Positions 28,044 to 57,855 of a stretch of 64,000 bases of DNA are shown piece by piece. Each line of letters starts with the position of its first letter. The first letter of the stretch is position 1. The notes beneath the pieces were generated by a model, which worked only from the letters and a program-made list of their open reading frames with translations, was not told the DNA's origin and made no database searches. Origin of the DNA: a virus (taxonomy: Duplodnaviria; Heunggongvirae; Uroviricota; Caudoviricetes); the IMG/VR virus record IMGVR_UViG_3300010280_000442, positions 1 through 64,000 of that record. One strand, written 5' to 3'. A program made the position numbers and the translations under genes.

Positions 28044-28085
28044 CGGCACGTTGCCCCGCCCAACCAAATGAAAAAGCTGGGTGGG
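28044..28085 (+). terminator. intrinsic terminator (hairpin CCCACCC...GCTGGGTGGGG then ATTTTTC), copy 1
   Basis: Immediately after the Abi stop. The same hairpin recurs at 29059 and 30811. Confidence 0.6.
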
Positions 28086-28207: not shown

Positions 28208-28333
28208 GTCATAGAAATAATAAAAAAATCCTGTTAACTGCGCATAAAATATTACGACGCACTATTTCAAAATCAGTCATTCATTTGCAAAACCAACGCA
28301 ATAAATTTATCAGTTTTTTCGCTGATAAACCTG

Positions 28334-28362
28334 TTGATATTTTATAAAATTCGTGCTATACT
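28334..28362 (+). promoter_or_regulatory. promoter TTGATA-N17-TATACT with upstream palindrome TTATCAG-N9-CTGATAA (candidate Phd operator)
   Basis: Read from sequence just upstream of the phd RBS GAAAGGAG. Confidence 0.45.
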
Positions 28363-28382
28363 ATAGCCAGAGAAAGGAGTTG

Positions 28383-29044: not shown

Positions 29045-29054
29045 TAAGCCAAGA

Positions 29055-29485
29055 ATTCCCCCACCCAACCAAATGAAAAAGCTGGGTGGGGATTTTTCAT
29101 GCCATCAGAAAACGTCAAAGTCATGCTGAGAAGCCAGGTCTTTGTATGGATAAGAGTCATTTATGCTCTCAGTGAACAGATCGTTGACCAAACCGATAGT
29201 GAGCAGATCGAGGTCTCGGATACTGATGCCTAACTGGACACATCGAAGCAGGAACAGCGGCGTTGTCATTTCACGCTCACTTTTGCGAGGTTTTTTTCGC
29301 ATCCACCTGCGTCTGCACGTTCAGCCCCCACAGGTCGATCAGTTCAGGAAGGATCTGATAAATACTGAAAGTATTGAACTGCTCCAGCCACTCGTCCGGC
29401 TCAGACGGTACTCCCTTGGGGTCCGCGTGCTTCGCCATGATATAAGCGATATTTTCAAAGAGCTCCAGACTGAATAGGACTTTTC
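29055..29485 (+). repeat. direct repeat R2 (about 430 bp): copy of the C-terminal ~72 codons of the tail assembly chaperone, the frameshift-extension region and the terminator
   Basis: Aligns base-for-base by eye with 30810-31235 apart from a few mismatches and a T7 run (29291-29297) where R3 has T8. Begins with terminator hairpin 29059-29098. Confidence 0.85.
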
Positions 29486-29581
29486 TTTGGACTTTTTGAA
29501 ATTAACAAGCAGAATTTCATCCGAATCATTCACTTTTTCCAATTTTATGAATTTTGCTCCTTACTATATTTTCAGAAAAAC

Positions 29582-29610
29582 TTGATTTTTTGAATTTTCT
29601 ATGCTATAAT
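29582..29610 (+). promoter_or_regulatory. promoter TTGATT-N17-TATAAT for the Fic cassette
   Basis: CTTGATTTTTTGAATTTTCTATGCTATAATTC, 50 nt upstream of RBS GGAGAAAGGAG. Confidence 0.45.
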
Positions 29611-29659
29611 TCTTTTCGTAATTTCAAGTTCCGCACTTCGGCGGAGAAAGGAGTATCAT

Positions 29660-38730: not shown

Positions 38731-38916
38731 TTACCTCCTGTACGTTTTCTGGTTGCCATGGTCATCCGTGATGGTCACGACACTCCCAGTCAAAAACCAG
38801 CATTTTTGTGATGCCCACACCGCATCCAGTGTGGTGTTCTCATTTCCTATCACCGCATAAAAACGATGGTCATGGGTAACAGTAAAATATCTCTCCATCC
38901 TGTTCTCCTCCATCAA
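38731..38916 (-). CDS. hypothetical small protein between TerL and portal
   Basis: 61-aa ORF, overlaps the TerL stop by 4 nt. Confidence 0.35.
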   Translation of the reverse strand: MMEENRMERYFTVTHDHRFYAVIGNENTTLDAVWASQKCWFLTGSVVTITDDHGNQKTYRR

Positions 38917-40544: not shown

Positions 40545-41020
40545 CAGCTTCCACCTCCCAGCAGATCCTCCATCTCATCCACCGATCCGTCACGGCTATT
40601 TGTATCCGCAATAATCCGGCTCCGGGAGGAAGGTGTCAGGCCGAACTGCTCGGCAAACCGGTTCATAATTTTCAGATAGGTCTGGGCAATGCTCACTTGT
40701 GGCACCTGCTGCCAGTAGCCGGATGGTGTCTTCACAATGGAGCCATGCTGAGTAATAAACTCCTCTGCTTCCTTCCACCGGGCGTATGCCTGACAGTAAC
40801 CTGCAAAGGCCGCCATGTCTACCTCTGTCAGGATGCCTATCTGCTCCATCTGCTTCGCAAGCCGCCTCCATTCCTTTTTTGCTTCCGGCTCCAGCCACTT
40901 TGGACAAGAAGGCGCTTTCTTCGTTGGCTTTGGTTCGCTGTTATTAAGCGGCCTCTTTCCCGGATTTCCTTCCAGTTCCTTAATTGCAGTCGGCGTTGGT
41001 TTTCTTCCTCTTGTTGCCAT
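40544..41020 (-). CDS. terminase small subunit (P27 family)
   Basis: ATRGRKPTPTAIKELEGNPGKRPLNNSEPKP...FAGYCQAYARWKEAEEFI is typical of P27-family TerS. Start at ATG MATRGRK with RBS GAGGGGAGGG. Confidence 0.7.
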   Translation of the reverse strand: MATRGRKPTPTAIKELEGNPGKRPLNNSEPKPTKKAPSCPKWLEPEAKKEWRRLAKQMEQIGILTEVDMAAFAGYCQAYARWKEAEEFITQHGSIVKTPSGYWQQVPQVSIAQTYLKIMNRFAEQFGLTPSSRSRIIADTNSRDGSVDEMEDLLGGGS

Positions 41021-41182
41021 TCGGCATCCCTCCCCTCTCATCAAAATAGGTAAAGAAAAAGGCTGCCAGCGTCAGCCGATAGCCTCAATGATAATCTATA
41101 TTAAAATGGATTCTACGACAGACACAGCCCTCTGCGGACTGTGTTGTTCTTGCTTTTATGCGTCGGGGTTAGCTTCCTTCCA

Positions 41183-41394: not shown

Positions 41395-41475
41395 CCCTTT
41401 GGTTGTGTGTATATTACCGTCACATGCGAAGAATAGCAAGTTATACCTTCGCTATAAATACACCAAAGATCGTAC
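41395..41475 (-). promoter_or_regulatory. conserved early-promoter unit, copy 1 (TTGCTA-N17-TAATAT with extended conserved flanks)
   Basis: Plus strand reads GTATATTACCGTCACATGCGAAGAATAGCAAGTTATA.... Confidence 0.5.
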
Positions 41476-41549
41476 CGGATAATCGGGCATTATATACAAA
41501 CGGCAAGGAGCCGGATGGCCAGCTCCCCATGCGCATGGTTTCTGGAATG

Positions 41550-41759
41550 TCAGCTTTCCAGGACTGCGGTAATCTTGAACCGTTTATTGAACTGCGCCGC
41601 CGTGATGGTGGCGTCGTCGCTGCCGTCATCTGCCCCAAAGAACACCTGGACTTTGCCGTTGCAGGTATTCGCCACACCGCATTTGCCGGTCTTGGTTTCC
41701 CTTATCTCGATGGTGTGTGCGGTATTTTCCGCTTTGACCAACTTTTCGAATTCCGTCAT
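41550..41759 (-). CDS. hypothetical small protein
   Basis: RBS GGAGGAGG; 69 aa. Confidence 0.45.
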   Translation of the reverse strand: MTEFEKLVKAENTAHTIEIRETKTGKCGVANTCNGKVQVFFGADDGSDDATITAAQFNKRFKITAVLES

Positions 41760-41808
41760 ATCAAATCCTCCTCCAAATTAATGCTGATTTTCCTTGCCAG
41801 TCCTACGG

Positions 41809-42030
41809 TTATTTTTCCAGCGTAACGATCAGTGTATTTTCTGAGATGGTGTCATCTGGATTTCGGAGTTGCCAGTTTACTGTATAACTTGTTTCATCCC
41901 ATTCATTATGCCGAAAAAGCTTCAGTGTTTCCTTTTTGATGTATTTAAGTGCCTCAACTCTGACCAGTTTTTGCTCTAACAGTTCCGCCTCATTGATTTC
42001 AATGCCATTAATTTTGTAAGTATACTTCAT
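41809..42030 (-). CDS. hypothetical small protein
   Basis: RBS GGAGGA; 73 aa. Promoter-unit copy at 42055-42140. Confidence 0.45.
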   Translation of the reverse strand: MKYTYKINGIEINEAELLEQKLVRVEALKYIKKETLKLFRHNEWDETSYTVNWQLRNPDDTISENTLIVTLEK

Positions 42031-42054
42031 CTCTGTGTCCTCCGTTTGCTTTGT

Positions 42055-42140
42055 TTTCCTTTTCGGTGTCTGTATATTACCGTCTTGTGCGAAGGATATC
42101 CAGTCAATTCTGCATCATAAATGTGACAAAGATGACGCCC
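42055..42140 (-). promoter_or_regulatory. conserved early-promoter unit, variant copy (TGGATA at the -35 position)
   Basis: TGTATATTACCGTCTTGTGCGAAGGATATCCAGTCAATTCTG. Confidence 0.4.
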
Positions 42141-42206
42141 TATTATCGGGCAATATAGACACTGATAACACAGAGAAAACAGCCCCTTTCGGAGCTGCTC
42201 CGCTGT

Positions 42207-42494
42207 TTATTGTGCTGCTTCCTGCAATGCCCAGGCTATTGCGTGGCCCTCATCCCAAAACTCAACTGCGCTGACCGCCGCAAGTCCGATGGTGCCTTCG
42301 CAACTCAAATCATCATCCAGATGCTCGTAAACCGCAGCGAAGTAGCAAGGCTTGTTCATTCCATTGAAGAAGTGGCCCGCCATAATCACCTTATCTCCGA
42401 AGTTCAGTACCTTTCTCCAAATGCACTCCAAATTCTCTGACGTGGTCGGATTAGGCAGTTTGTATTTTTCTGCCCTCTTTGTCATTTCACTCAT
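42207..42494 (-). CDS. hypothetical protein
   Basis: RBS AAGGAGG; 95 aa. Promoter-unit copy at 42520-42620. Confidence 0.45.
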   Translation of the reverse strand: MSEMTKRAEKYKLPNPTTSENLECIWRKVLNFGDKVIMAGHFFNGMNKPCYFAAVYEHLDDDLSCEGTIGLAAVSAVEFWDEGHAIAWALQEAAQ

Positions 42495-42519
42495 CGTGGC
42501 ATCCTCCTTGTTAGGGTTT

Positions 42520-42620
42520 GTTCCCCTTTTGTTGTGGACATATTACCGTCTCTCCTCACATTTATCCAGTCAATTGTGAGTTGTAATCTGCACAAATATC
42601 TCCGGCGAAATCAGGTCAAT
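42520..42620 (-). promoter_or_regulatory. conserved early-promoter unit, variant copy
   Basis: GGACATATTACCGTCTCTCCTCACATTTATCCAGTCAATTGTG. Confidence 0.4.
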
Positions 42621-42626
42621 AATACG

Positions 42627-42821
42627 TTAATTCAACGCATCAATAATTTCCTCCACTATATCCTTTGCATCCCCAGAAACACTGCATCCGCTGGTCTCGT
42701 ATTTGCTGAGAAGTCCCTGCAAAAGAGGTTCATCCATAGGAATATCCGGAAACCAAACTTCATACCCTGTTTGCTCATTCTTAAAAAGCATCGCTACTAA
42801 TGCCATCCCATCCATATTCAT
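42627..42821 (-). CDS. hypothetical small protein
   Basis: RBS AAAGGAGA; 64 aa. Promoter-unit copy at 42845-42950. Confidence 0.4.
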   Translation of the reverse strand: MNMDGMALVAMLFKNEQTGYEVWFPDIPMDEPLLQGLLSKYETSGCSVSGDAKDIVEEIIDALN

Positions 42822-42844
42822 AATCTCCTTTTAATTTGTGGGGT

Positions 42845-42950
42845 TCGTTCCCCTTCGTTGTGACTGCATATTACCGTCTCTTCGCACATATATCCAGTCT
42901 TTTCTGTATCATAATCTGCACAAATATCTGCGGCAGAATCAGTGCAGGAT
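42845..42950 (-). promoter_or_regulatory. conserved early-promoter unit, variant copy
   Basis: GACTGCATATTACCGTCTCTTCGCACATATATCCAGTC. Confidence 0.4.
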
Positions 42951-43066
42951 ATACGGTCACAGTTGGGGCGCATTTGCCCTTTGTGGGGCTTTCCTCTTGA
43001 ATGGACAAACACATCGAGGGGCGGTTTTCCGCCCCTCTGTGCCCGCCCTGTGCGGCTGTGTTGGGC

Positions 43067-43516
43067 TTATTCTTCTTCGTCCCAATCATCCTCTTCTTCC
43101 CAGCAGTCCTCTTCCTTCTCGTCCCAGCTGTCATCCACATCCTCCTCCGCGTCCTGGAAGTCCCACATATCTTCGGTAGGCATCTCCCTGAGCGCCGGGG
43201 TTCCTTCGATGTAATCGGCAACCGCACCGGTCAGCTGGTCGAGGATCGCATCGTAGGCCCTGTCGTTTTCAATTCCCCAGATGGCATCCACCAGTTCCCT
43301 GATCTCCTTGTTGCCCTTCGCCCGCAGGAAGCGGGCCGCTGGGTTGCAGGTTTCTTTACCGTACTCAACCCCAATGTGGTCGCCGTCGTTAAAGCAGCGG
43401 TATCCGATCCTTGCCATTGCCCTGGTAAGCTCCCCCGCGAGGTTCTCCGCCTTGCCGCTTACCGGTACCAGTTCCTCAAAAAGTTTATTGATTCTTTCAT
43501 CGTTCTTCGTAATCAT
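43067..43516 (-). CDS. hypothetical protein with extremely acidic Trp-containing C-terminal tail
   Basis: RBS AAGGAGGA before ATG MITKND. C-terminus EDVDDSWDEKEEDCWEEEDDWDEEE. Confidence 0.5.
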   Translation of the reverse strand: MITKNDERINKLFEELVPVSGKAENLAGELTRAMARIGYRCFNDGDHIGVEYGKETCNPAARFLRAKGNKEIRELVDAIWGIENDRAYDAILDQLTGAVADYIEGTPALREMPTEDMWDFQDAEEDVDDSWDEKEEDCWEEEDDWDEEE

Positions 43517-43539
43517 GGTGTTATCCTCCTTGTTTTTTG

Positions 43540-43625
43540 GGTGTTCCCCTTTGGTTGTGTGTATATTACCGTCATGTCCGGAGAATAGCAAGTTATATCC
43601 GCGCCATAATGTACACAATCATTTG
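43540..43625 (-). promoter_or_regulatory. conserved early-promoter unit copy
   Basis: TGTATATTACCGTCATGTCCGGAGAATAGCAAGTTATATCCGCGCCATAATGTACACAATCA. Confidence 0.5.
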
Positions 43626-43761
43626 CCCCCGGAATTGGCACATTTACAGCATATTATGTATAGAAAAACGGACAGAGGAAAGCGGCCGGTGATTGCTCTT
43701 CCAGCCGTTTTCCTTTGCCTGTTTATTGGTTCTGTGCTTTCTCAGGAGGTCCGCCCAAGCC

Positions 43762-44004
43762 CTACAAAATCCCTTTCTCTTTCTCATCCCAGATATGTCC
43801 GGCGGCGTCCACATACAGCCGAAGGTCTTCTTCCCTGTCGTAAGTTTCGTAAAGGTAATTGACCATACCGGTCGCCCGGAAGGTATATGCGTAGGTGCTT
43901 CTGTACCAATGGCAGCCGTTATAGTCGATTTCAAAAGGAAACTCTTTTTCGCTTTGGTATTTGATTTCGCCGTATCCGAATTTGTTGTCTTTTGTTTGTT
44001 TCAT
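43762..44004 (-). CDS. hypothetical small protein
   Basis: Start at ATG MKQTKDN with RBS GAAAGGGG; 80 aa. Confidence 0.45.
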   Translation of the reverse strand: MKQTKDNKFGYGEIKYQSEKEFPFEIDYNGCHWYRSTYAYTFRATGMVNYLYETYDREEDLRLYVDAAGHIWDEKEKGIL

Positions 44005-44009
44005 GGCTT

Positions 44010-44095
44010 TCTGCCCCTTTCGTTTTGGTAGCTGTATATTACCGTCGTTTGGAACATATAGCAAGCGGCCACATGTACCAAACATTCACGACAGG
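44010..44095 (-). promoter_or_regulatory. conserved early-promoter unit copy
   Basis: TGTATATTACCGTCGTTTGGAACATATAGCAAGCGGCCACATGTACCAAACATTCAC. Confidence 0.5.
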
Positions 44096-44108
44096 GATTG
44101 TGCGCCTT

Positions 44109-44396
44109 TTACTTCTGTGAAATCAGTGCCATAGGGCCTTCGGAATTATAATACTCCTCAATATACTGGCTGCCATCCTCGTTGGTTACCACTGCCGGAT
44201 ACCGTACTTTCTTTCCGTATTTTGAGAGAATGTCAGCGGCGATATCTGCAATCTCCCCAATAAACTCCATGTCCCAGGCCAGTTCCGGCTCTTCACACAA
44301 AACCTTGCACATTTCCATAACTGCGTTGTGAACCTCATCAATTCGGGCAGCCTGCCCATCATCCAGTTCCAACTCTTCTAATTCATCATCATACAT
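44109..44396 (-). CDS. hypothetical acidic protein
   Basis: Start at ATG MYDDELEEL with RBS AAAGAGAGG; 95 aa. Confidence 0.45.
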   Translation of the reverse strand: MYDDELEELELDDGQAARIDEVHNAVMEMCKVLCEEPELAWDMEFIGEIADIAADILSKYGKKVRYPAVVTNEDGSQYIEEYYNSEGPMALISQK

Positions 44397-44419
44397 TTTC
44401 GTTTGCCTCTCTTTCCGGG

Positions 44420-44510
44420 ATGGTCCCTTTGCGGTGATACATATTACCGTCACGTCCCGGTAATAGCAAGTCAATTCTGTTCCATAAATGTACAAAATAT
44501 TCGTACTGAA
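44420..44510 (-). promoter_or_regulatory. conserved early-promoter unit copy
   Basis: ACATATTACCGTCACGTCCCGGTAATAGCAAGTCAATTCTGTTCCATAAATGTACAAAATATTC. Confidence 0.5.
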
Positions 44511-44521
44511 CTCTGTCGCAT

Positions 44522-44986
44522 TTATGATTCGGCGGCTGCGTAAAAAACTGGAATCCCTATGGATTCATCCTCAATTCCAAGTTCCTCACACATCCCCTCC
44601 AGCATCGCCCTGCTGTAACAGTGCAGGTAAAGATTATATTCCTTCTTCCGTGTATTCATACGGAGCCAGTAAAACCCGTACTCTCCCATAAGGTAAGCAT
44701 TGTATTCCACACCACTATCTGCGCCAACAGCCTCCGCCGATTTCTGGCAGAACCTCCCGACCTCATTCAAATTCGCAAACTCCTGTGTGAACGCATTATA
44801 GACAGCATCGAATTCCGCCAGCAACTCCGGCGTCTCCAATTCCTTGTGGATCGGCCACACTGTATTCCACCAGCGCCATCCGTCATGGTCGGCGCGGATA
44901 TAGCCCACCTCGCTATTTGGCCTGCTGTCCACAGAATCCAGCCATGCTTGTCTGAAAAATAAATGTTTCTGTAAAAGTTCTCTCAT
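44522..44986 (-). CDS. hypothetical protein (154 aa, Trp-rich)
   Basis: ORF with weak RBS; no recognisable motif. Confidence 0.45.
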   Translation of the reverse strand: MRELLQKHLFFRQAWLDSVDSRPNSEVGYIRADHDGWRWWNTVWPIHKELETPELLAEFDAVYNAFTQEFANLNEVGRFCQKSAEAVGADSGVEYNAYLMGEYGFYWLRMNTRKKEYNLYLHCYSRAMLEGMCEELGIEDESIGIPVFYAAAES

Positions 44987-45044
44987 ATAAAAAACGTTTC
45001 TTTCAAATTACTGTGGGGTGACCGCAGCCACCCTCATCTTTCTT

Positions 45045-45227
45045 TTACTCTGCCATCTCTCCAAGGGACCTCACCTCATAGCGGATCAGCAGTCCGTTGA
45101 TGTCACACCCCCGCCTCTTCTCCGCTTCCTTTTTGCAAGCCTCCGCTTCCCTCTGGGTTGAGTAGATGCCGCTGTACGGCACCCACCTTGCCCCCTTTTT
45201 TCCGCCTCTGCAAAATACCTGGTACAT
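45045..45227 (-). CDS. hypothetical small basic protein
   Basis: RBS AGGAGGG; 60 aa. Confidence 0.35.
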   Translation of the reverse strand: MYQVFCRGGKKGARWVPYSGIYSTQREAEACKKEAEKRRGCDINGLLIRYEVRSLGEMAE

Positions 45228-45260
45228 CTCAAGCCCTCCTATGTTGTTCTGCCTTAGTTT

Positions 45261-45452
45261 TCATCTGGATTTCCGGCCCAAGAGGAATGCCTGTTCCAGC
45301 ATCGCCTCAATAGCTCCGACTGAAATGTCCAGGAAGTCCTCGCTGTCGCTCATGCGGTACTCCAAATCCCCGCGCTGCTCTATAGTGTAGGATGCTTTCT
45401 TTGCGATCTCTAAAAGTGCCTCGGCCTGCTTTTTTGTTATGTTCTTCATCAT
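45261..45452 (-). CDS. hypothetical small protein
   Basis: RBS AAGGAGGG before ATG MMKNITKK; 63 aa. Promoter-unit copy at 45490-45575. Confidence 0.4.
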   Translation of the reverse strand: MMKNITKKQAEALLEIAKKASYTIEQRGDLEYRMSDSEDFLDISVGAIEAMLEQAFLLGRKSR

Positions 45453-45489
45453 GGTAAAGCCCTCCTTGTATTTCCGCTTAGGCTTCTCT

Positions 45490-45575
45490 CCCTTGCGTTG
45501 TGGACATATTACCGTCACGTTCCGATAATAGCAAGTCAATTTTGCGCCATAATGTTCACAAATATCAAAAGCAGA
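45490..45575 (-). promoter_or_regulatory. conserved early-promoter unit copy
   Basis: GACATATTACCGTCACGTTCCGATAATAGCAAGTCAATTTTGCGCCATAATGTTCACAAATATC. Confidence 0.5.
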
Positions 45576-45598
45576 AACTGTATAAATTATGGCGCCTT

Positions 45599-45961
45599 CT
45601 ACTTTGAGGGTCCGCCATTTTTCTTTCCTAATTCATAAAACGCTTTGGCAATTTCGGTGCGATTCTTATCCATGAAAAGATCCCTGCACCTAAAACAGAA
45701 TTCTTCATTTTTATGCTCCAGCTGCTTAAATTTTTCTCCGCAGATTACACAGAAACTGTTTTTGTATTGTTCTCTCACATGACCGGATAGTTTCACGCCG
45801 CAGTGCGGGCAAAAAGAATTCCCTTTTGCTGTTTCCGATCCACATGCGGAGCAGCAATAATGTTCAACGTCCCTTTCTACCCATTCCTGAAACTTTGTAC
45901 CTCTGTCCACGCACTCTTCAAGGACTCTTTGTCTTCTCCAATAATGTTTAATATATGCCAT
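45599..45961 (-). CDS. Zn-ribbon protein (multiple CxxC pairs)
   Basis: CCSACGSE...CPHCG...CVICGEKF...CFRCRD. RBS AGGAGG. Promoter-unit copy at 45980-46060. Confidence 0.5.
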   Translation of the reverse strand: MAYIKHYWRRQRVLEECVDRGTKFQEWVERDVEHYCCSACGSETAKGNSFCPHCGVKLSGHVREQYKNSFCVICGEKFKQLEHKNEEFCFRCRDLFMDKNRTEIAKAFYELGKKNGGPSK

Positions 45962-45979
45962 GCTCTTTTCCTCCTGGTT

Positions 45980-46060
45980 TTAACTTTTTCTCTTTGTATG
46001 TGCATATTACCGTCACGTCCCGGTAATAGCAAGTCAATTCTGAGCCATAATGTTCACAAT
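45980..46060 (-). promoter_or_regulatory. conserved early-promoter unit copy
   Basis: GCATATTACCGTCACGTCCCGGTAATAGCAAGTCAATTCTGAGCCATAATGTTCACAATCATCC. Confidence 0.5.
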
Positions 46061-46558: not shown

Positions 46559-46635
46559 TTGATAATATTCCATTCTGACGGTAATATGGCTACAATGGAA
46601 AAGGGTCTCGGATTATCCGGGGCCCCCGTTTCCGT
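46559..46635 (+). ncRNA. candidate tiny plus-strand transcription unit A (TTGATA-N17-TAATAT promoter, about 40-nt transcript, hairpin)
   Basis: TTGATA 46559-46564, TAATAT 46582-46587, then GGCTACAATGGAAAAGGG, hairpin CGGATTATCCG and GGGGCCCCC, then GTTTCC. Paralogous to 50422-50496. Confidence 0.3.
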
Positions 46636-46848
46636 ATCAGCTGAAGTTTACCATATTGGCTGTCCGGCATATTTTTTTATAATCGCCTCCGCGGAAACTG
46701 ATACTGCGGGAATGCCGTACCTTCCGGTTCAGAACCCGTTTATTCATGGATATCCCCCTACGAAGCTCCCCACGGAAGCTGTATGCGCCTTTGCCTCTGA
46801 TCCAGCAGTTACGCTTTACCGCAGCCGCTCCCTGCATTGCTTTCTGCA

Positions 46849-47178: not shown

Positions 47179-47646
47179 TTATCCCTCCAGCCACCAGCTT
47201 TCCTTCATTGCGGCCCATTCCATCAGTTCTTTGCGTTCCGCCATGCCTGCGTCCTCCAAAGCTTCCCATGTGCCGCAGGACTCACATATGGTAATGTCCG
47301 CCCTTCGGCTGAGGGCAAGCAAGCGGTTATCCGGTGCGGCTTTTCTTCCGCACCTGGGGCAACGTGCGCCCCTGTGTCGCTTTCTCCCGATCAGTTCAAT
47401 CGTAGCCTTTGCCTCGGATTCCGCCGCGACTCTGTGGCATCTGTCCGCTCCGTAAGCCACGTTTAAGGAGCTGCCATTGTCCCATGAAACAAGCACGTTG
47501 CCAGCGTCATCGACGCCCCGGCAGGTTCCCTGCAGTCCGGCCGGCATTTTGCAGTAGGGGTCATTCATCTCATCTAAAACGAGCCGGCAGCCGCCGGGGT
47601 AATCCCGCCGAAGACGCTCCAGTTCTTTTTTATCTGCAAAAATCAT
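47179..47646 (-). CDS. DUF4314-like protein
   Basis: YPGGCRLVLDEMNDPYCKMPAGLQGTCRGVDDAGNVLVSWDNGSSLNVAYGADRC matches my recollection of the DUF4314 consensus. C-terminal Cys pairs CPRCG...CESCG. RBS GGAGGAG. Confidence 0.55.
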   Translation of the reverse strand: MIFADKKELERLRRDYPGGCRLVLDEMNDPYCKMPAGLQGTCRGVDDAGNVLVSWDNGSSLNVAYGADRCHRVAAESEAKATIELIGRKRHRGARCPRCGRKAAPDNRLLALSRRADITICESCGTWEALEDAGMAERKELMEWAAMKESWWLEG

Positions 47647-47649
47647 CGC

Positions 47650-48321
47650 TTACTCCTCCCCGTCCGTGCATTTCGTTTTTCCTTCCCGTAGCTGAAGGTA
47701 GATATTCACATACCGGTCCCGTTCTGCGCCTTCACTGCCCGCCATGCATTTCAGGTAAAAATCCTCTGCCGCTTCCCTGCTGTCGTATACCTCGGTTTTT
47801 CCATAACAGGTCACTTTGATTTCTTCTTTACCAGTCCCTCTGGTCAGGCTGCATTCGCCAAGCCTCTCAATGGCGGCCTTCCTACCAATGCTATCCGCAA
47901 GCGCCTGCTCCAAAATGTGGATCGGGAAATGAAAATCTTTATAGCCATCCTTCAGTACCTTATAGTAGGATGGGTACGGCTCCGCCAGCCTGCGGCCGTC
48001 CGCCATGATGTAGACCATCGCTGTCAGCGTTTTCGGTTCCTCGCCGTCCAGAGGGAACACCTCCACCGGCAGGTCTTTCTTGTAGTAGTAGGTGGGGAAG
48101 CCTTCATAGCGGTCAAGGTTTCTTTCGTCCCTCTCGGAAATCTCCCACACCAGAACCGGCGTGTTCTTTTTCTCATTCGGTTCGATGGTGGCATGCACCT
48201 TGAACAAGAGCTGCCAACCGTAAAGGATCGCCGTCCCCACGATCTTTGCGTCCGGAGTGCGCTCCTTCATCTGTTCCACCGAAAGGTTACTGCCGTAAGC
48301 AATGTAATATTTTTTCTCCAT
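47650..48321 (-). CDS. AIG2-like / gamma-glutamylcyclotransferase-family protein (paralogue 1)
   Basis: N-terminal YYIAYGSNLSVEQMKERTPDAKIVG (YGSNL motif) and later YEGFPTYYYKKDL. Start ATG MEKKYY with RBS AAAGGAG. Confidence 0.7.
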   Translation of the reverse strand: MEKKYYIAYGSNLSVEQMKERTPDAKIVGTAILYGWQLLFKVHATIEPNEKKNTPVLVWEISERDERNLDRYEGFPTYYYKKDLPVEVFPLDGEEPKTLTAMVYIMADGRRLAEPYPSYYKVLKDGYKDFHFPIHILEQALADSIGRKAAIERLGECSLTRGTGKEEIKVTCYGKTEVYDSREAAEDFYLKCMAGSEGAERDRYVNIYLQLREGKTKCTDGEE

Positions 48322-48344
48322 AAAACTCACGCTCCTTTGTCTTG

Positions 48345-48435
48345 TTTCCGCCGCCTTGGCGGTATGTTATTAATCACTCTTTCTGCGAATAATAGCAAGC
48401 GGATTCGCCGCCATATATCTCACAAATATGTCTGG
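48345..48435 (-). promoter_or_regulatory. conserved early-promoter unit, subfamily with ATTAAT -10
   Basis: GGTATGTTATTAATCACTCTTTCTGCGAATAATAGCAAGCGGATTCGCCGCCATATATCTCACAAATATG; shares AGAGTGATTAATA-CATACCGCC with the copy at 51695. Confidence 0.45.
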
Positions 48436-48450
48436 CCCGTTTTGTGCAGT

Positions 48451-48996
48451 TTACAGCCTCTGGAATTCCCGGATATATGCTTTCGCCGCTTTGACGCCGA
48501 TGCTGTCCGAAAGCCCTTTATCAAGGATTTCCACGTCAAATCCCCAATGGGCATATCCGTCGTCCAGCAGCCTGTAGTATTCCATCCCCGGTTCCCCAAG
48601 CAGCCGTTCCTCATGCAGGACATACGCCATGCACTGCTTCTGCCCCTTCAGTCTGCCGCCCCGCAGCGTGGTAACAGGAAGCTGGAAATAACGCTTATAA
48701 TAATACTTGGGATAGCCTTCATACCGGTTCAGCAGGGCCTCATCGAATTCGCTGATTTTGTACACCAACACCGGCACATAGCAGTTGGCGTCCTGCTCGA
48801 TAGTGGCGTAAAACCCGGATTTACTCTTTTTGAACAGGAGCCGGTAGCCATGGATTTTGGCTGTGCCGGCCACCTGCGCGTCCGGGCAGCGGACGGACAT
48901 CCGTTCCAGCGACAGGTTGCTTCCATAGGCAAGGTAAAACAGGCTGGGTTTGCGGGAAGGGCCGCCGCAAAGTTCAAAACGTTTCCAATCAGGCAT
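48451..48996 (-). CDS. AIG2-like / gamma-glutamylcyclotransferase-family protein (paralogue 2)
   Basis: LFYLAYGSNLSLERMSVRCPDAQVAG and YEGYPKYYYKRYF. Start at ATG MPDWKRF with RBS AAGGAAGG; overlaps the stop of the upstream 85-aa ORF. Confidence 0.65.
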   Translation of the reverse strand: MPDWKRFELCGGPSRKPSLFYLAYGSNLSLERMSVRCPDAQVAGTAKIHGYRLLFKKSKSGFYATIEQDANCYVPVLVYKISEFDEALLNRYEGYPKYYYKRYFQLPVTTLRGGRLKGQKQCMAYVLHEERLLGEPGMEYYRLLDDGYAHWGFDVEILDKGLSDSIGVKAAKAYIREFQRL

Positions 48997-49246
48997 CCCT
49001 CTCACCGCCTTCCTTAATCTCCTCTGCTTCAAACTCCACATCCACGAAATCCTCCGCCTCAAGGATGATCTGGCTGTTATGCCACCAGTCGCTGACGGTC
49101 TGCACCGCGTCATCCACAGTGGACTCCTTCAATTCCGACTCATGGACGAGGACCTTCCGTTTGAGGGTTTCGGTGATCGTAACCTGAAAGGTTCTGCCTG
49201 ACGGCTGTGTCTGGTTTTCGATGTTCTGGTTTTTATTATTTTTCAT
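48989..49246 (-). CDS. hypothetical small acidic protein, translationally coupled to GGCT paralogue 2
   Basis: RBS GAAGGAGG; 85 aa. Confidence 0.4.
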   Translation of the reverse strand: MKNNKNQNIENQTQPSGRTFQVTITETLKRKVLVHESELKESTVDDAVQTVSDWWHNSQIILEAEDFVDVEFEAEEIKEGGERDA

Positions 49247-49325
49247 GGTGTCTACCTCCTTCTCCTACCACCTAAAGGGCGGTTGCCCGCCCGGAGGATT
49301 CCCGTTTCCGTTTTAGGTGGTGGGG

Positions 49326-50270
49326 TTATGCCATCCTGTTCCGCCATGCGCTGTTGCCTTCCATATTGGCGAGGAAGAAGTCCCTTGCCGTTTTGAACTC
49401 GTCCCCGATGAATCCCAGCCGGAGCATCCAGCACCGGAATGCGTAGGCTTCGTTTTCCGTCTGCTGGGGCTTAGGGCTTGCGAACCGCACCTGCTTAGCA
49501 AGCTGGCTGATTGCGAGGCAAAGCTGGATCATCGCTTTCAGCTGGCCAGCGTGCATGCCGTTCTGTTTTCCGTCCGCCGGTGCGTCGAATTGGAAAAGCC
49601 GGAATTCGATTGTGCCTTTGGTAAAGGTTGCGTGGAGGTTGGTCATGTGATAGCGGCTGTCGTTGTAGTGATGAGTCCTGCCATATTCGCATCCCTGGCT
49701 CTTGTACCAGACATCCGCAAGGGCTTCCATGGTCTTGGGCTTCTTTTTGTTGACCTGCTCCAGGAATCTTGGGTCAACCGTGCGGCAGTATCTGCTCTGG
49801 CGGCCTCGGTCTACTTTGATCGCTTTGGCAATCTGTGTTTCATGCGCCGCCATGATGTTCACCAGGTTTCGAATGGTCTGCGGGGTGTGTCCTTTCGCTC
49901 CGATGTGAATGTGGACTCCACAGCCTCTGGAGGCGTCACTCTTCATTCCGCTTTTGCGAAGGGTACGAATAAGCCCCTGCAGAAGCTCCATATCCTCGTA
50001 GGTAAGGATTGGGGTAACCATCTCGCATTTCTGGCTGTCTGGTCCGCTGATGCTCACATCCCTCTGGAATTTCCATTCCCGGCCCTGCTGGTCCCATGCG
50101 CTGTAGGTTTCGTATCCATTGCGGCGGGCGGTGTACTCACTCCGGTAGGTTCCAAAGTAAGCGGCGGCTTTCTCAGCTGCTTTCTGGCGGGTAATATTGT
50201 TGCCCTCGACCTCCACTCCGAAGGTCTGTTTCTTCATGTTCTCAATCTGGATTCTGGTGCTTTCTTTCAT
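49326..50270 (-). CDS. putative amidoligase (Amidoligase_2-like, glutamine-synthetase-related fold), paralogue 1
   Basis: My assignment rests on shared C-terminal block FRCWMLRLGFIGDEFKTARDFF (compare RIWLVRIGMDGDEFKKTRKIL in the neighbour) and on the neighbourhood with AIG2 cyclotransferases, which Pfam describes for Amidoligase_2 in Firmicutes. Start ATG MKESTRIQ with RBS AAAGGAGA. Confidence 0.55.
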   Translation of the reverse strand: MKESTRIQIENMKKQTFGVEVEGNNITRQKAAEKAAAYFGTYRSEYTARRNGYETYSAWDQQGREWKFQRDVSISGPDSQKCEMVTPILTYEDMELLQGLIRTLRKSGMKSDASRGCGVHIHIGAKGHTPQTIRNLVNIMAAHETQIAKAIKVDRGRQSRYCRTVDPRFLEQVNKKKPKTMEALADVWYKSQGCEYGRTHHYNDSRYHMTNLHATFTKGTIEFRLFQFDAPADGKQNGMHAGQLKAMIQLCLAISQLAKQVRFASPKPQQTENEAYAFRCWMLRLGFIGDEFKTARDFFLANMEGNSAWRNRMA

Positions 50271-50309
50271 GGTCTTTATCTCCTTTTCCTTGTCGGTCGT
50301 CGTTTTCCC

Positions 50310-50395
50310 TTTCGGTATGTGCATATTACCGTCAGGTGCCGACTATATCAAGTTAATTCGGAGCCATAATGTACACAAACATTTCAGCAAAAGAT
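50310..50395 (-). promoter_or_regulatory. conserved early-promoter unit copy
   Basis: GTGCATATTACCGTCAGGTGCCGACTATATCAAGTTAATTCGGAGCCATAATGTACACAAACATTTC. Confidence 0.45.
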
Positions 50396-50421
50396 TGTGT
50401 ACATTACGGGAGAAAAGACCG

Positions 50422-50496
50422 TTGATAAATGTGCGTTTCAGAGCTAATATGGCTATAATGGAAGAGGGGGCTCTTAATTTTGCGGCCCCCATTTTC
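50422..50496 (+). ncRNA. candidate tiny plus-strand transcription unit B (TTGATA-N17-TAATAT, about 40-nt transcript, intrinsic terminator)
   Basis: TTGATA 50422-50427, TAATAT 50445-50450, GGCTATAATGGAAGA, hairpin GGGGGC (50466-50471) ... GCCCCC (50485-50490) then ATTTT. Confidence 0.35.
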
Positions 50497-50499
50497 GGT

Positions 50500-51663
50500 T
50501 CAAAGCGCCGCTTCTACTTCTGCGGTTCCTGCCGTGTCCACAGTGGCTTCCAAAGACTGCGACGGCTCTCCGGGTTCCATACTCCCGGTCTGTGCCTGCC
50601 CCGACGCAGCTTCTTCCTTCGCCGCCTTCAGCGCGTCCCGTTTCTTCTGATTTTTAATCCTTGCCTTTTCCGCATCTGCCGGAGTGCGGAAAGCGGTGTG
50701 TCCGCCGAGGTTCTCCATCAGGATTTTCCGGGTCTTCTTGAACTCGTCACCGTCCATGCCGATCCGCACCAGCCAAATCCTCATGGCGTATTTCTCATTG
50801 GTATCATCCACAGCTTTTGCCTGGATGCGCTTCTGGTTCAGCGCCTGCTCATTCATCAGAACCGCAAGATGTCCGTAGGCGGTCAGATGCTCCATATCGG
50901 GGGCCTCGCCAAAACCAGTAAACCGAAGTTCCTCCGGGGTGATGGTCAGGCCGTAGAGGCTCTTGCCATGCTGTGTTTCATAATCCCCAACCATCTTGAG
51001 GAAATTCGCCCTGCTGAAAGTGCAGGAGTCATCCTTAAGCGTCTCCACCAGTTCCTCATCCACACTGAAATGGCCTCCGGTCGCTTTGTTGATCAGTGCG
51101 CCGCGGCTGTAGATCAGGTTGATAAGGTTGCGGAGGGATGTTCCCGTATGCCTGCCTATCGAAATAGGGAATGCCATGTTCATGTCGATGGCGTCCGCCT
51201 GTGCCGCGGCTTCCTCTTCAATCTCCTGCTGATACTCAGCGTCGGAAACCGTGTCTTCCGCTTCGTCCTCCACAGCCGCTTCCATCGGCTCTGCCCCACT
51301 CTCCGTTTCCGGCTCTGTGTCTGTCTCCGCCTGCTGCTGGCCTTCCGGCTCCGTCCCTACCGTTTCCTCTGGCACGGCGCTGTCGGCGGCAGTTCCTACC
51401 GTCACCTCAATCGGCCCTGCCTGGGCTTCCTCGCTTACGATCTCTCCGTCTCCGATCAGCCCTTCTTCCATAAGGGTCTTCAGGATAGCCTCATCCGCTT
51501 TGTTCTCATCAATAAAAAGGTCGCCGCTGCGGTCAATCAGGTAGTCGCCGACTTCGTATGCGTACAGCGGCGCCCGCGTGTACATAGGATGGATACCGGT
51601 CAGCTCTCCCAGCCTTTTTGCCAGGATCCTTCTCTCGTTTACGTTCTTTTTAAATTTCAGCAT
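50500..51663 (-). CDS. amidoligase-like protein, paralogue 2 (divergent, with acidic low-complexity insert)
   Basis: Shares the C-terminal YAMRIWLVRIGMDGDEFKKTRKILMENLGG block with 49326-50270. Central E/A/T-rich region. RBS GAAAGGGG. Confidence 0.5.
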   Translation of the reverse strand: MLKFKKNVNERRILAKRLGELTGIHPMYTRAPLYAYEVGDYLIDRSGDLFIDENKADEAILKTLMEEGLIGDGEIVSEEAQAGPIEVTVGTAADSAVPEETVGTEPEGQQQAETDTEPETESGAEPMEAAVEDEAEDTVSDAEYQQEIEEEAAAQADAIDMNMAFPISIGRHTGTSLRNLINLIYSRGALINKATGGHFSVDEELVETLKDDSCTFSRANFLKMVGDYETQHGKSLYGLTITPEELRFTGFGEAPDMEHLTAYGHLAVLMNEQALNQKRIQAKAVDDTNEKYAMRIWLVRIGMDGDEFKKTRKILMENLGGHTAFRTPADAEKARIKNQKKRDALKAAKEEAASGQAQTGSMEPGEPSQSLEATVDTAGTAEVEAAL

Positions 51664-51694: not shown

Positions 51695-51790
51695 TTTCTT
51701 TGTCCTCCGGCGGTATGGTATTAATCACTCTTTTATCGGAAAATAGCAAGTCAATTCCGCGATAATTATCAGAACCTACCTATTGCACAA
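51695..51790 (-). promoter_or_regulatory. conserved early-promoter unit, ATTAAT -10 subfamily
   Basis: GGTATGGTATTAATCACTCTTTTATCGGAAAATAGCAAGTCAATTCCGCG. Confidence 0.45.
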
Positions 51791-56940: not shown

Positions 56941-57126
56941 TTGAACGACAAACAGAAAAGGAACCGCCGCAGGAAAGTCTATCTCACTTACCAGGGGAAC
57001 ATCCCTTCCCCACAGATCCGTCTGGAAGGGAAGTGGCTGGAGCAGCTCGGCTTCACGACCGGCTGCTTCGTGTCCATCCAGTGTGAGGAGGGACGGCTGG
57101 TGATTGAGAAAGACACCACTCAGTAG
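56941..57126 (+). CDS. SymE-like (AbrB-fold) small protein
   Basis: SPQIRLEGKWLEQLGFTTGCFVSIQCEEGRLVIE aligns with the conserved SymE core [33 protein letters not shown]. TTG start after RBS AAAGGAGG. Confidence 0.55.
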   Translation: MNDKQKRNRRRKVYLTYQGNIPSPQIRLEGKWLEQLGFTTGCFVSIQCEEGRLVIEKDTTQ

Positions 57127-57485
57127 GTGTAGGTCGGATTGCTATCCTCCGCCCGTGTCTTTTTATCATGGCACTGCTTACATAAACTTCTCCAGTTGCT
57201 CCGGTCCCAGAACAGCCTTTGGTCGCCTCGGTGTGGGGTGATGTGGTCAACCACTGTCGCCTTCACATACCGCGGCGGCTGTTTCTTCATGCACAGCACA
57301 CACAGCGGATGCGCCTGCAGGTATTCCCGGCTGGCTTTCTGCCACTTCCTTCCGTACCCGCGCTTTGCAGCTGACCGCACTTCTTCCGGGTGCAGCGCCT
57401 TGTGTTTCTCACAGTATTTCTGCCCGTAAGGGACAAGAGCAGCACAGCCGGGATGTCTGCACGGTGTGTTCGGTCTGTATGGCAT
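57120..57485 (-). CDS. HNH endonuclease
   Basis: Cys pairs plus the HNH core VDHITPHRGDQRLFWDRSNWRSLCKQCHDKKT. RBS GGGAGGCGG. Confidence 0.75.
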   Translation of the reverse strand: MPYRPNTPCRHPGCAALVPYGQKYCEKHKALHPEEVRSAAKRGYGRKWQKASREYLQAHPLCVLCMKKQPPRYVKATVVDHITPHRGDQRLFWDRSNWRSLCKQCHDKKTRAEDSNPTYTY

Positions 57486-57712: not shown

Positions 57713-57734
57713 AATAGTGAGCCAAGAGCTCGAT

Positions 57735-57855
57735 GCGCTTTACAGTGTGCGGTTCAAACACTGTTTATGCAAAAATGTTTCGCAATGTACGGCACTGAAA
57801 CATTGCTTATACAAGTACGCTTCACAATGTGCGGCACTGAAACATTGTTTAACAG
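57735..57855 (+). ncRNA. ToxI-like antitoxin RNA: three tandem ~41-nt repeats, each with an internal inverted repeat
   Basis: ACAGTGTGCGGTTCAAACACTGTTTAT / CAATGTACGGCACTGAAACATTGCTTAT / CAATGTGCGGCACTGAAACATTGTTTAA, spaced 40-42 nt apart, lying between promoter and terminator directly upstream of the toxin ORF. Confidence 0.55.

What the first reader, a model, noticed from the sequence alone, without database searches (positions are those of the whole stretch)
47179..51663. Cluster of two amidoligase-like and two AIG2/gamma-glutamylcyclotransferase paralogues plus a DUF4314 gene in the phage early region
Five linked minus-strand genes: DUF4314-like (47179-47646), AIG2/GGCT paralogue 1 (47650-48321, YGSNL motif), a small acidic ORF coupled to AIG2/GGCT paralogue 2 (48451-48996), and two paralogous amidoligase-like proteins (49326-50270, 50500-51663) sharing the C-terminal block W-[ML]-[LV]-R-[LI]-G-x-x-G-D-E-F-K. 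The Pfam description of Amidoligase_2 notes an association with AIG2-family cyclotransferases in Firmicutes. Comparative-genomic work has predicted phage and plasmid peptide-tagging or small-metabolite systems of this kind. To my knowledge none has been characterised biochemically. Here each gene has its own copy of the conserved early promoter, which suggests host-takeover or counter-defence use, for example making or cleaving a gamma-glutamyl-type modification.
Basis: partly seen in the sequence, partly recalled or inferred. Interest (0 to 1): 0.7.

Follow-up and report, generated by a model that had tools for sequence, protein, structure and literature searches.

The report
Phage amidoligase plus gamma-glutamyl cyclotransferase cassette
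A prophage of a gut Clostridia bacterium carries a real and very widespread gene set: one active amide-forming ligase, two enzymes that break gamma-glutamyl amide bonds, a catalytically dead copy of the ligase and small unknown proteins. The set is already annotated in gut phages, but its target has never been found.

Summary

The 387-aa protein is not a second enzyme. Only its C-terminal half is homologous to the ligase, and every family-invariant residue in that half is replaced. It also occurs without the ligase in Streptococcus and Clostridium phages.

Only three promoter-family elements serve the six genes.

The element is a siphovirus-type prophage related to Ca. Heliusvirales. The cluster lies between DNA methyltransferases and the terminase; early timing is unproven.

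Ligase and cyclotransferase are adjacent in 58/59 viral loci and 58/58 bacterial loci, and again in a distant Bacillus phage.

Best reading: a ligase/cyclotransferase pair that makes and then resolves a gamma-glutamyl-amine bond on an unknown substrate, next to a separate dead-ligase/DUF4314 module.

This is a new member of a known, predicted but uncharacterised kind. Interest is moderate.

The parts
51709..51770 (-). Promoter-family element upstream of F (variant: -35-like TTGCTA, -10 region AGAGTGATTAATA)
   Evidence: Direct repeat D7, 76% identical to 48358-48419. The same -10 variant lies upstream of the amidoligase in related locus L081. Not flagged by the sigma-70 consensus scan.
50500..51663 (-). 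F: 387-aa catalytically dead amidoligase paralogue. Conserved N-domain 1-75, disordered acidic linker about 76-160, C-domain 161-330 homologous to the C-terminal half of the ligase, then a basic helix and a variable tail.
50469..50495 (+). G+C-rich hairpin followed by a T-run on the + strand, 3' of F
   Evidence: Read from the sequence. It lies downstream of the + strand promoter-like site 50422-50450.
50364..50409 (.). Inverted repeat: two TTGTGTACATTATGG half-sites, 21-nt arms, 4-nt spacer, between two back-to-back promoter-like sites
   Evidence: (14 half-site matches in the window against 1.08 expected).
50323..50351 (-). Sigma-70-type promoter-like site TTGATA-17-TAATAT driving E, followed by the conserved leader ACCGAAAGGGAAAAC
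   Evidence: The element is conserved upstream of the amidoligase in about 70 related viral loci.
49326..50270 (-). E: 314-aa Amidoligase_2 enzyme (GS/GCL-like carboxylate-amine ligase) with a C-terminal three-helix extension that carries the shared block
49264..49324 (.). 13-nt inverted repeat enclosing a GC hairpin between E and D; a possible partial terminator or attenuator
   Evidence: sequence.
48989..49246 (-). D: 85-aa acidic DpnD/PcfM-like protein; its stop overlaps the GGCT2 start by 8 nt
   Evidence: Pfam PF14207 E 1.2e-9. pI 4.47. Present in only 10/59 related viral loci.
48451..48996 (-). C: GGCT paralogue 2 (181 aa)
   Evidence: PF06094 E 7e-9. PHROG 2520 E 2.7e-34. YGSNL and LNRYEG motifs present.
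48358..48419 (-). Promoter-family element upstream of B (same variant as the one upstream of F)
   Evidence: Repeat D7; comparison.
47650..48321 (-). B: GGCT paralogue 1 (aa 1-150) fused to a 55-aa C-terminal domain (PHROG 34775). That domain is a separate small ORF next to DUF4314 in many related phages.
   Evidence: Alignment to human GGCT 2pn7, E 2.4e-5, with YGSNL and the LDxxEG Glu aligned.
47179..47646 (-). A: DUF4314 domain (aa 6-72) plus a C-terminal CxxC...CxxC zinc-ribbon domain; starts 4 nt after the stop of B
   Evidence: Pfam 1.4e-27. PHROGs 2431/3782 and 6105/2945. The zinc-ribbon part is a separate ORF in Faecalibacterium phage Pioen.

Best explanation
The region is an accessory part of a temperate siphovirus-type prophage of a gut Clostridia bacterium, related to Ca. 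Heliusvirales. It lies between the DNA-methyltransferase genes and the packaging genes. It holds two sub-modules.

(1) An enzyme pair, E plus GGCT. E is an active ATP-dependent carboxylate-amine ligase of the glutamine-synthetase / glutamate-cysteine-ligase fold. By analogy with the characterised top structural matches, it most likely activates the gamma-carboxylate of free glutamate and joins it to an amine. The cyclotransferases are duplicated in this clade and both keep their catalytic motifs. They then resolve that gamma-glutamyl-amine bond into 5-oxoproline plus the free amine. The pair would therefore make and break one bond: a transient gamma-glutamyl tag or protecting group on a substrate that is still unknown.

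(2) A non-enzymatic set: F, DUF4314 and a small PHROG-34775 domain. F is a dead paralogue of the ligase. It keeps the ligase's C-terminal half and its three-helix extension but none of the aligned catalytic residues. This set is older and more widespread than the enzyme pair. It probably acts by binding, as an adaptor, scaffold or regulator. In this phage the small domain is fused to GGCT1, which ties the two sub-modules together.

Shown: family membership, fold, residue conservation or loss, synteny, and a three-part promoter layout (F | E-D-C | B-A).
Inferred: glutamate as the acyl donor, the sequential make-and-break logic, and any role of F or DUF4314 in it.
For: - Families and motifs.
- E-GGCT linkage: 58/59 viral loci, with GGCT within 400 nt downstream of E in 55; 58/58 species-representative bacterial loci. 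It also holds at 38% identity (Syntrophomonadaceae phage) and at 27% identity (Bacillus phage 031MP004, GGACT E 1.6e-24, 1.1 kb downstream).
- One cluster representative (P0474) fuses Amidoligase_2 to a weak GGACT-like region.
- A promoter-family element sits directly upstream of E in about 70 related loci, so E-GGCT would be one unit.
- F-like plus DUF4314 occur without E and GGCT, at the same position, in Streptococcus phage Javan630. F-like alone does so in Clostridium phage CWou-2020b.
Against: - No substrate is identified.
- Co-expressing a ligase with the enzyme that undoes its product is paradoxical unless an intermediate step exists. No enzyme for such a step was found.
- Some Amidoligase_2 genes lack a neighbouring GGCT: Faecalibacterium phage Pioen and the C. 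perfringens plasmid SWIM-amidoligase.
- F-like exists without E, so it may have nothing to do with gamma-glutamyl chemistry.
- The fusion in P0474 scores below Pfam's threshold and its GGCT motifs are degenerate.
- The F model has low confidence (pLDDT 60.9).
- The close relatives counted are not phylogenetically independent.
Confidence: 0.45

Rival explanations
1. Reversible protein tagging, analogous to pupylation and depupylation. E attaches glutamate or a peptide to lysines of a host defence protein or a phage protein. GGCT erases the mark. F would serve as a substrate adaptor. The purpose would be counter-defence or host takeover.
Against: No small tag protein with a conserved C-terminal Glu or Gln was seen. 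The C-termini of the F family are variable, and PcfM is present in only 10/59 loci. GCL/YbdK-type enzymes match E better than PafA does. There are no PADLOC or anti-defence matches. As far as I recall, GGCT-fold enzymes are known to act on free gamma-glutamyl compounds, not on protein-bound marks.
Confidence: 0.12
2. Cell-envelope modification. The pair makes or remodels a gamma-glutamyl-containing wall component, such as a peptidoglycan stem-peptide derivative, to block superinfection or to aid lysis.
For: This is the prediction attributed to Iyer et al. 2009 for phage amidoligases, as relayed in PMC11318856. Firmicute peptidoglycan contains gamma-linked D-Glu (established knowledge, my recall).
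Against: No signal peptides, membrane segments or Mur-type partners were noted. The cluster sits with DNA-modification genes, not with the lysis genes at 9.5-12 kb. E is a basic soluble protein, pI 9.6.
Confidence: 0.1
3. A DNA or nucleotide hypermodification step. The ligase adds an amino acid to a modified base or a nucleotide precursor, and GGCT trims it.
For: The gene is almost always next to ParB-type N6/N4 and C5 DNA methyltransferases (57/58 genome loci). The window also holds SAM synthetase, a PAPS-reductase-like gene and Nmad4. In a C. perfringens plasmid a SWIM-amidoligase follows dcm. Amidoligase Pfam matches co-occur with thymidine-hypermodification genes in viral contigs (PMC8989533).
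Against: None of the genes I scanned between the replication and packaging modules matched a base hydroxymethylase, a 5-hmdU kinase, a TET/JBP enzyme or an aGPT-Pplase. This was not an exhaustive search of the window. No known DNA modification needs a gamma-glutamyl intermediate.
Confidence: 0.1
4. Metabolic drain or auxiliary metabolic function. With a catalytic amine, ligase plus cyclotransferase convert glutamate and ATP into 5-oxoproline. This would be a truncated gamma-glutamyl cycle that alters host glutamate, ATP or thiol pools.
For: The best structural matches of E are glutamate-cysteine ligases. GCL plus GGCT without glutathione synthetase gives this futile cycle in known biochemistry (my recall). 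PHROG files the GGCT under 'moron, auxiliary metabolic gene and host takeover'.
Against: No benefit to a temperate phage is evident. It does not explain the conserved F, DUF4314 and small-domain partners, nor the fusion of GGCT1 to one of them.
Confidence: 0.1

Closest known systems
Amidoligase_2 (PF12224) with AIG2-family neighbours in Firmicutes: the comparative-genomic prediction credited to Iyer, Abhiman, Burroughs & Aravind 2009. PHROG 2443 and 2520 are the phage equivalents.
   Same: Same ligase family (E 3.1e-54), same GGACT/AIG2 partner, same host phylum, and a mobile-element context. The same pair, including two PHROG-2443 genes, is listed for C. clostridioforme LM41 prophages.
   Different: This clade has a duplicated GGCT, and one copy is fused to a PHROG-34775 domain. 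One of the 'two amidoligases' is a dead paralogue that also occurs on its own. I could not read the 2009 paper (not held), so what it says rests on my recall and on its citation in PMC11318856.
Glutamate-cysteine ligase / YbdK-type carboxylate-amine ligases, together with gamma-glutamyl cyclotransferase of the gamma-glutamyl cycle
   Different: Sequence identity is only 9-12%, and no PDB sequence hit appears even with a profile. There is no glutathione synthetase partner. E is much smaller (314 aa) and has a phage-specific C-terminal three-helix extension.
PafA / Dop (pupylation ligase and depupylase)
   Different: No Pup-like tag was found. F lacks the aligned catalytic residues, whereas Dop is an active enzyme. 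Removal here would be by a GGCT-fold enzyme, not by a GS-fold amidase.
Butirosin BtrJ/BtrG logic: a gamma-glutamyl group added by a ligase as a protecting group and later removed by a gamma-glutamyl cyclotransferase (from my own knowledge, not checked here)
   Same: A ligase and a GGCT-fold enzyme encoded together and acting on the same gamma-glutamyl amide in sequence.
   Different: BtrJ is an ATP-grasp enzyme, not GS-like. That pathway has a carrier protein and a transferase between the two steps, and nothing comparable was found here.

Membership tests
Amidoligase_2 (PF12224), GS/GCL-like carboxylate-amine ligases: protein E (49326-50270) | Full-length match to the family profile above the curated threshold | tested here: met
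   184.9 bits against a cutoff of 22, profile positions 1-244 of 245.
Amidoligase_2 (PF12224), GS/GCL-like carboxylate-amine ligases: protein E (49326-50270) | GS/GCL-type fold | tested here: met
Amidoligase_2 (PF12224), GS/GCL-like carboxylate-amine ligases: protein E (49326-50270) | Family-invariant acidic, His and Arg residues on the core strands (ExE, E83, HxH, R206, N211, ExR) | tested here: met
   Invariant across homologues of 23-42% identity and in 18 close relatives. The mapping of these residues onto metal and ATP sites was not verified on coordinates.
Amidoligase_2 (PF12224), GS/GCL-like carboxylate-amine ligases: protein E (49326-50270) | ATP-dependent amide-bond formation | not testable with these tools
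   Needs an enzyme assay.
Amidoligase_2: protein F (50500-51663) | Match to the family profile | tested here: not met
   No Pfam hit at E<=1. Only the C-terminal half is homologous.
Amidoligase_2: protein F (50500-51663) | Catalytic residues | tested here: not met
   H120 to P, H122 to S, E222 to R, R224 to T in the hhalign/BLAST alignment. The ExE strand is not detectable.
Amidoligase_2: protein F (50500-51663) | GS/GCL-type fold | tested here: inconclusive
GGCT / AIG2 / GGACT fold: proteins B and C | Pfam match above threshold | tested here: met
   PF06094 at 43.2 and 36.7 bits against a cutoff of 22.8. PHROG 2520 E 3e-37 and 3e-34.
GGCT / AIG2 / GGACT fold: proteins B and C | YGSNL substrate-binding motif and catalytic Glu (human GGCT E98 in LDEQEG) | tested here: met
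   Both motifs align in the phmmer alignment of B to 2pn7. Both are present in C.
GGCT / AIG2 / GGACT fold: proteins B and C | Release of 5-oxoproline from a gamma-glutamyl amide | not testable with these tools
   Needs an enzyme assay.
Conserved amidoligase-AIG2 neighbourhood of Firmicutes mobile elements | The two genes are adjacent across many genomes, including distant ones | tested here: met
   58/59 viral loci and 58/58 bacterial loci. Also seen in a Bacillus phage at 27% identity and a Syntrophomonadaceae phage at 38%. Exceptions: phage Pioen and a C. perfringens plasmid.
Pupylation-like peptide tagging | A small tag protein with a conserved C-terminal Gln or Glu encoded alongside | tested here: not met
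   No such ORF was noted. The C-termini of the F family are variable, and PcfM ends in ...GERDA and is sporadic. This was not an exhaustive search.
Known anti-phage defence or anti-defence systems | Match to a PADLOC model | tested here: not met
   No hit for any of the six proteins.
Leading-region single-stranded-DNA promoter (Frpo-like) of conjugative elements | A conjugative-element context, and a hairpin that rebuilds the -35 and -10 boxes in single-stranded DNA | tested here: not met
   The window is a tailed phage with terminase, portal, capsid and tail genes. The mirror symmetry at 50318-50470 is explained by two back-to-back promoter-like sites. The ssDNA fold z-score is only -2.9. I did not see a mirrored promoter at the 45.5-kb copy I read.

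The most novel reading that the evidence does not exclude
The active ligase, its dead paralogue F, DUF4314 and the cyclotransferases form one phage-encoded reversible gamma-glutamylation system. F, through its shared three-helix C-terminal domain and acidic linker, would direct the ligase to a specific protein or nucleic-acid-associated target. GGCT would remove the mark. That would be a new post-translational tagging pathway used by one of the most prevalent human-gut phage lineages during takeover or counter-defence.
Probability: 0.12. Interest if true: 0.75.

Novelty: new member of a known kind. Interest (0 to 1): 0.4.

Why it matters
The ligase family is very abundant. I found at least 8000 close relatives in the 5.8-billion-protein set, 4302 clusters at 50% identity and at least 494 loci among species-representative genomes of gut Clostridia. 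It sits in a phage lineage reported as widespread in the human gut (PMC11283538).

No member has a solved structure, and I found no known substrate for any member. Finding the amine it modifies would annotate thousands of phage genes. It could also reveal a new gamma-glutamyl-based modification.

Two results give concrete constructs for experiments. One of the 'two amidoligases' is a conserved dead paralogue with its own wider distribution. The E-GGCT pair appears to be an independently promoted two-gene cassette.

Tried and rejected
1. Conjugative-element leading region with Frpo-type ssDNA promoters. DUF4314, PcfM and the mirrored -35/-10 boxes suggested it. Rejected: the window is a complete tailed prophage, and the symmetry is explained by two back-to-back promoter-like sites.
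2. F as a full-length split amidoligase. Its N-domain has the same order of strands and helices as the N-half of E, but hhalign finds no homology. Left as unsupported.
3. Sequence searches of the PDB with E, with the E-family profile, and with protein A: no usable hit. B was searched too and did hit human GGCT.
4. NCBIfam and PADLOC scans of all six proteins: nothing meaningful.
5. Profile search with the shared C-terminal block. It returned only short fragments, a few of them named 'virulence protein', and no informative domain fusions.
6. Foldseek of the F model against the PDB: nothing significant.
7. Rfam at a permissive threshold on 46-52 kb: no RNA family.
8. Literature searches for any biochemical or anti-defence work on this family: none found. 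The key 2009 paper is not held.


Full report
**What the window is.** Nearly all of the larger ORFs with family matches lie on the minus strand and describe a temperate tailed phage:
- three large serine recombinases (17-9396)
- an endolysin
- tail genes, including a 1857-aa tape-measure protein
- capsid, ClpP-type protease, portal, and large and small terminase subunits (38913-41044)
- about 6 kb of small cassettes
- the cluster in question
- a 712-aa C5 DNA methyltransferase and a ParB-N6/N4 methyltransferase
- SAM synthetase, a D5-type primase-helicase and a MazF toxin

The exact F protein lies on a 390-kb metagenome contig, so this is an integrated prophage. The nearest annotated relatives are gut phages filed under Ca. 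Heliusvirales. The closest bacterial-genome copies, with the ligase 85-88% identical, are in Lachnospiraceae, Acetatifactor, Blautia and Eubacteriales MAGs.

| Gene | Coordinates | Assignment | Evidence |
|---|---|---|---|
| A | 47179-47646 | DUF4314 plus C-terminal zinc ribbon | Pfam E 1.4e-27 |
| B | 47650-48321 | GGACT/AIG2 cyclotransferase | Pfam E 6.7e-11 |
| C | 48451-48996 | GGACT/AIG2 cyclotransferase | Pfam E 7e-9 |
| D | 48989-49246 | DpnD/PcfM, acidic (pI 4.5) | Pfam E 1.2e-9 |
| E | 49326-50270 | Amidoligase_2, full length | Pfam E 3.1e-54 |
| F | 50500-51663 | no Pfam hit | |

- B and C are 47% identical.
- B aligns with human gamma-glutamyl cyclotransferase (2pn7, E 2.4e-5). The YGSNL motif and the Glu of LDxxEG are in register. 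C has both motifs as well.
The PDB alignment is independent of it.
- D overlaps the start of C by 8 nt.

**The active ligase.**
- The AlphaFold2 model of E is confident (pLDDT 84.5, pTM 0.88).
- Residues E20, E22, E83, H120, H122, R206, N211, E222 and R224 are invariant in 18 close relatives. They are also invariant in homologues of only 23-42% identity from a Syntrophomonadaceae phage, Faecalibacterium phage Pioen, a Bacillus phage and a C. perfringens plasmid.
- No PDB entry matches by sequence, even with a family profile. The family therefore has no solved structure.

**The 'second amidoligase' is a dead paralogue.**
- F matches only the phage profile PHROG 2443, over residues 163-349.
- BLASTP (E 3e-11) and profile-profile comparison (probability 99%, E 5e-18) align E 119-314 with F 163-329.
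- In that alignment HIH becomes PIS and EFR becomes RFT. The N-terminal ExE strand has no detectable counterpart.
- A 20-member alignment of the F family shows an invariant 75-residue N-domain, a hypervariable acidic linker (28 acidic and 0 basic residues here), a conserved C-domain and a basic helix.
- F-like proteins, annotated 'virulence-related protein', sit between the ParB-methyltransferase and the terminase in Streptococcus phage Javan630 and Clostridium phage CWou-2020b. Those loci have no ligase and no cyclotransferase. In Javan630 a DUF4314 gene follows F-like immediately.
- F is therefore an older, independently useful, non-catalytic protein. It is not a second enzyme.

**Conservation of the neighbourhood.**

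| Set of loci (at least 2.5 kb on both sides) | n | GGCT | Two GGCTs | F-like | DUF4314 | PcfM |
|---|---|---|---|---|---|---|
| Viral contigs, ligase 69-85% identical | 59 | 58 | 5 | 58 | 56 | 10 |
| Species-representative bacterial genomes | 58 | 58 | 6 | 52 | 53 | 5 |

- Among the 58 bacterial loci, a methyltransferase is present in 57 and a terminase within 6 kb in 51.
- The usual order is MTases, F-like, DUF4314, a small ORF, E, GGCT, then the terminase. The small ORF is homologous to residues 166-222 of B; it was detected in 25 of the 59 viral loci.
- The window belongs to a minority clade with the order F, E, PcfM, GGCT2, GGCT1 fused to that small domain, then DUF4314 fused to a zinc ribbon.
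- The ligase-cyclotransferase link also holds at depth. A Syntrophomonadaceae phage (38% identity) has MTase-E-GGACT. Bacillus phage 031MP004 (27%) has a GGACT gene 1.1 kb downstream.
- It is not universal. Phage Pioen and the C. perfringens plasmid pCP8533etx (dcm, DUF4417, SWIM-Amidoligase_2) show no GGCT nearby.
- One cluster representative (P0474) fuses the ligase to a GGACT-like region. The match is below Pfam's threshold and the motifs are degenerate.

**Promoters.**
- A repeated element occurs at least 11 times on the minus strand. It has the form TTGCTA or TTGATA, a 17-nt spacer, TAATAT, and then the leader ...ACCGAAAGGGAA. Several copies have a TTGTGTACATTATGG half-site upstream.
- The minus-strand copies lie at 9298 (upstream of a recombinase), at nine sites between 41.4 and 46.0 kb, and at 50322. 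Further copies lie on the plus strand, upstream of an 84-aa acidic ORF and of a SymE toxin gene.
- Within the cluster, only E has a copy that passes the sigma-70 consensus scan.
- B and F are preceded by a variant with the same -35 part and AGAGTGATTAATA in place of the -10 part. This variant, and the intermediates AGAGCGAATAT and AGAGTGATATAT, occupy the same position upstream of the ligase in related phages. I therefore count them as family members.
- D, C and A have no element and are coupled to the gene upstream.
- The predicted layout is three units: F | E-D-C | B-A.
- Nothing here shows when these promoters fire.

The tightest and deepest linkage in the data is E with GGCT, usually as an E-GGCT unit with its own promoter. 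The best-supported reading is therefore a make-and-break pair acting on one gamma-glutamyl-amine bond.

From my own knowledge, known precedents for encoding both activities together are the gamma-glutamyl cycle and protecting-group chemistry in butirosin biosynthesis. Which amine is involved, and whether F, DUF4314 and the small domain take part, is inferred only. The basis is synteny and the fusion of that small domain to GGCT1 in this clade.

The rivals cannot be excluded: protein tagging, cell-wall modification, DNA hypermodification, or a glutamate/ATP drain. Each lacks a defining partner in this locus.

**Novelty and score.** The pair is a known, predicted, uncharacterised kind:
- it is described in the Pfam family note (my recall)
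- it is represented by PHROGs 2443 and 2520
- it is listed, with two PHROG-2443 genes, in C. clostridioforme prophages

What this analysis adds:
- the dead-paralogue status and wider distribution of F
- the two-sub-module structure
- the clade-specific duplication and fusions
- the three-unit promoter layout

A specialist would not be surprised by the find. Its abundance and the complete lack of biochemistry still make it a reasonable experimental target, hence moderate interest.

Noticed in passing
window 9298; 41410-46014 (nine copies); 50322; plus-strand copies near 46100, 46559, 50422 and 56880: A repeated regulatory cassette of about 100-130 nt precedes at least 14 genes, including a recombinase, a SymE toxin and many small ORFs. 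It consists of a TTGTGTACATTATGG half-site or inverted repeat, a -35/-10 pair and the conserved leader ACCGAAAGGGAA. Motif counts far exceed the shuffles (15 against 4.1; 14 against 1.1). It is conserved upstream of the amidoligase in about 70 related phage contigs. Which regulator binds the half-sites is unknown.
   Followed up: partly
window 46559-46640 and 50422-50500 (+ strand): There are two paralogous plus-strand mini-units (repeat D10, 72% identical). Each has TTGATA-17-TAATAT, then GGCTAYAATGGAARAGGG, a G+C hairpin and a T-run. They would give transcripts of about 40-50 nt running against the minus-strand genes. One lies just 3' of F. They could be small antisense RNAs or insulators.
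   Followed up: no
window 57731-57848 (+): The only Rfam hit at gathering threshold is Fusobacteriales-1 (93 bits, E 2e-11), here in a Clostridia prophage. It consists of three hairpin repeats (42-nt tandem repeat D13) inside a 285-aa plus-strand ORF with no Pfam hit. Two duplicated promoter-like repeats lie at its start (57519 and 57683). It may be iterons of a phage origin or a cis-regulatory RNA.
   Followed up: no
window 42207-42494 (-): A 95-aa protein matches Nmad4, 'nucleotide modification associated domain 4' (PF18756, E 1.2e-20). This adds to the DNA-modification flavour of the region, alongside two methyltransferases, SAM synthetase and a PAPS-reductase-like gene.
   Followed up: partly
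window 36172-37287 (-): A PAPS-reductase-domain protein (371 aa) is encoded between the portal and the ClpP-type prohead protease genes. That is an unusual place for such an enzyme. It might point to a DndC-like DNA-modification role.
   Followed up: no
window 56941-57126 (+) and 57120-57485 (-): A SymE-type toxin gene on the opposite strand (Pfam call taken from the public contig) is driven by the same hairpin-plus-promoter cassette. It sits next to an HNH endonuclease gene. C. clostridioforme prophage phi13-alpha also combines SymE, amidoligases and GGCT.
   Followed up: partly
window 27111-30805 (+), G+C 0.43-0.44: A low-G+C island on the opposite strand lies downstream of the tape-measure gene. 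It encodes an Abi_2 abortive-infection protein and a Fic/DOC protein. It is probably a prophage-borne defence moron.
   Followed up: no
window 17-9396 (-): Three consecutive large serine recombinases (725, 763 and 846 aa as listed) sit at one end of the prophage. The third has the repeated promoter cassette just inside its listed ORF, so its true start is probably near 9240.
   Followed up: no
L082 (Streptococcus phage Javan630) 4644-5433; L083 (Clostridium phage CWou-2020b) 4776-5498: Proteins annotated 'virulence-related protein' in Firmicutes phages are F-like dead amidoligase derivatives. They are encoded between the ParB-methyltransferase and the terminase. In Javan630 the DUF4314 gene appears to start about 14 nt before the F-like stop, upstream of the annotated CDS start.
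   Followed up: partly
P0474 (457 aa, representative of a 50% cluster): This protein is an apparent fusion of a complete Amidoligase_2 to a degenerate GGACT-like domain. The GGACT match scores 21.3 bits, below the cutoff of 22.8, and the YGS and EG motifs are altered. It could be a true Rosetta-stone fusion or a lost stop codon.
   Followed up: partly
L087 (C. perfringens plasmid pCP8533etx) 2156-5885: A conjugative-type plasmid carries dcm, a DUF4417 protein and a SWIM-zinc-finger::Amidoligase_2 protein in a row. This is a second, independent association of this ligase family with a C5 DNA methyltransferase.
   Followed up: no
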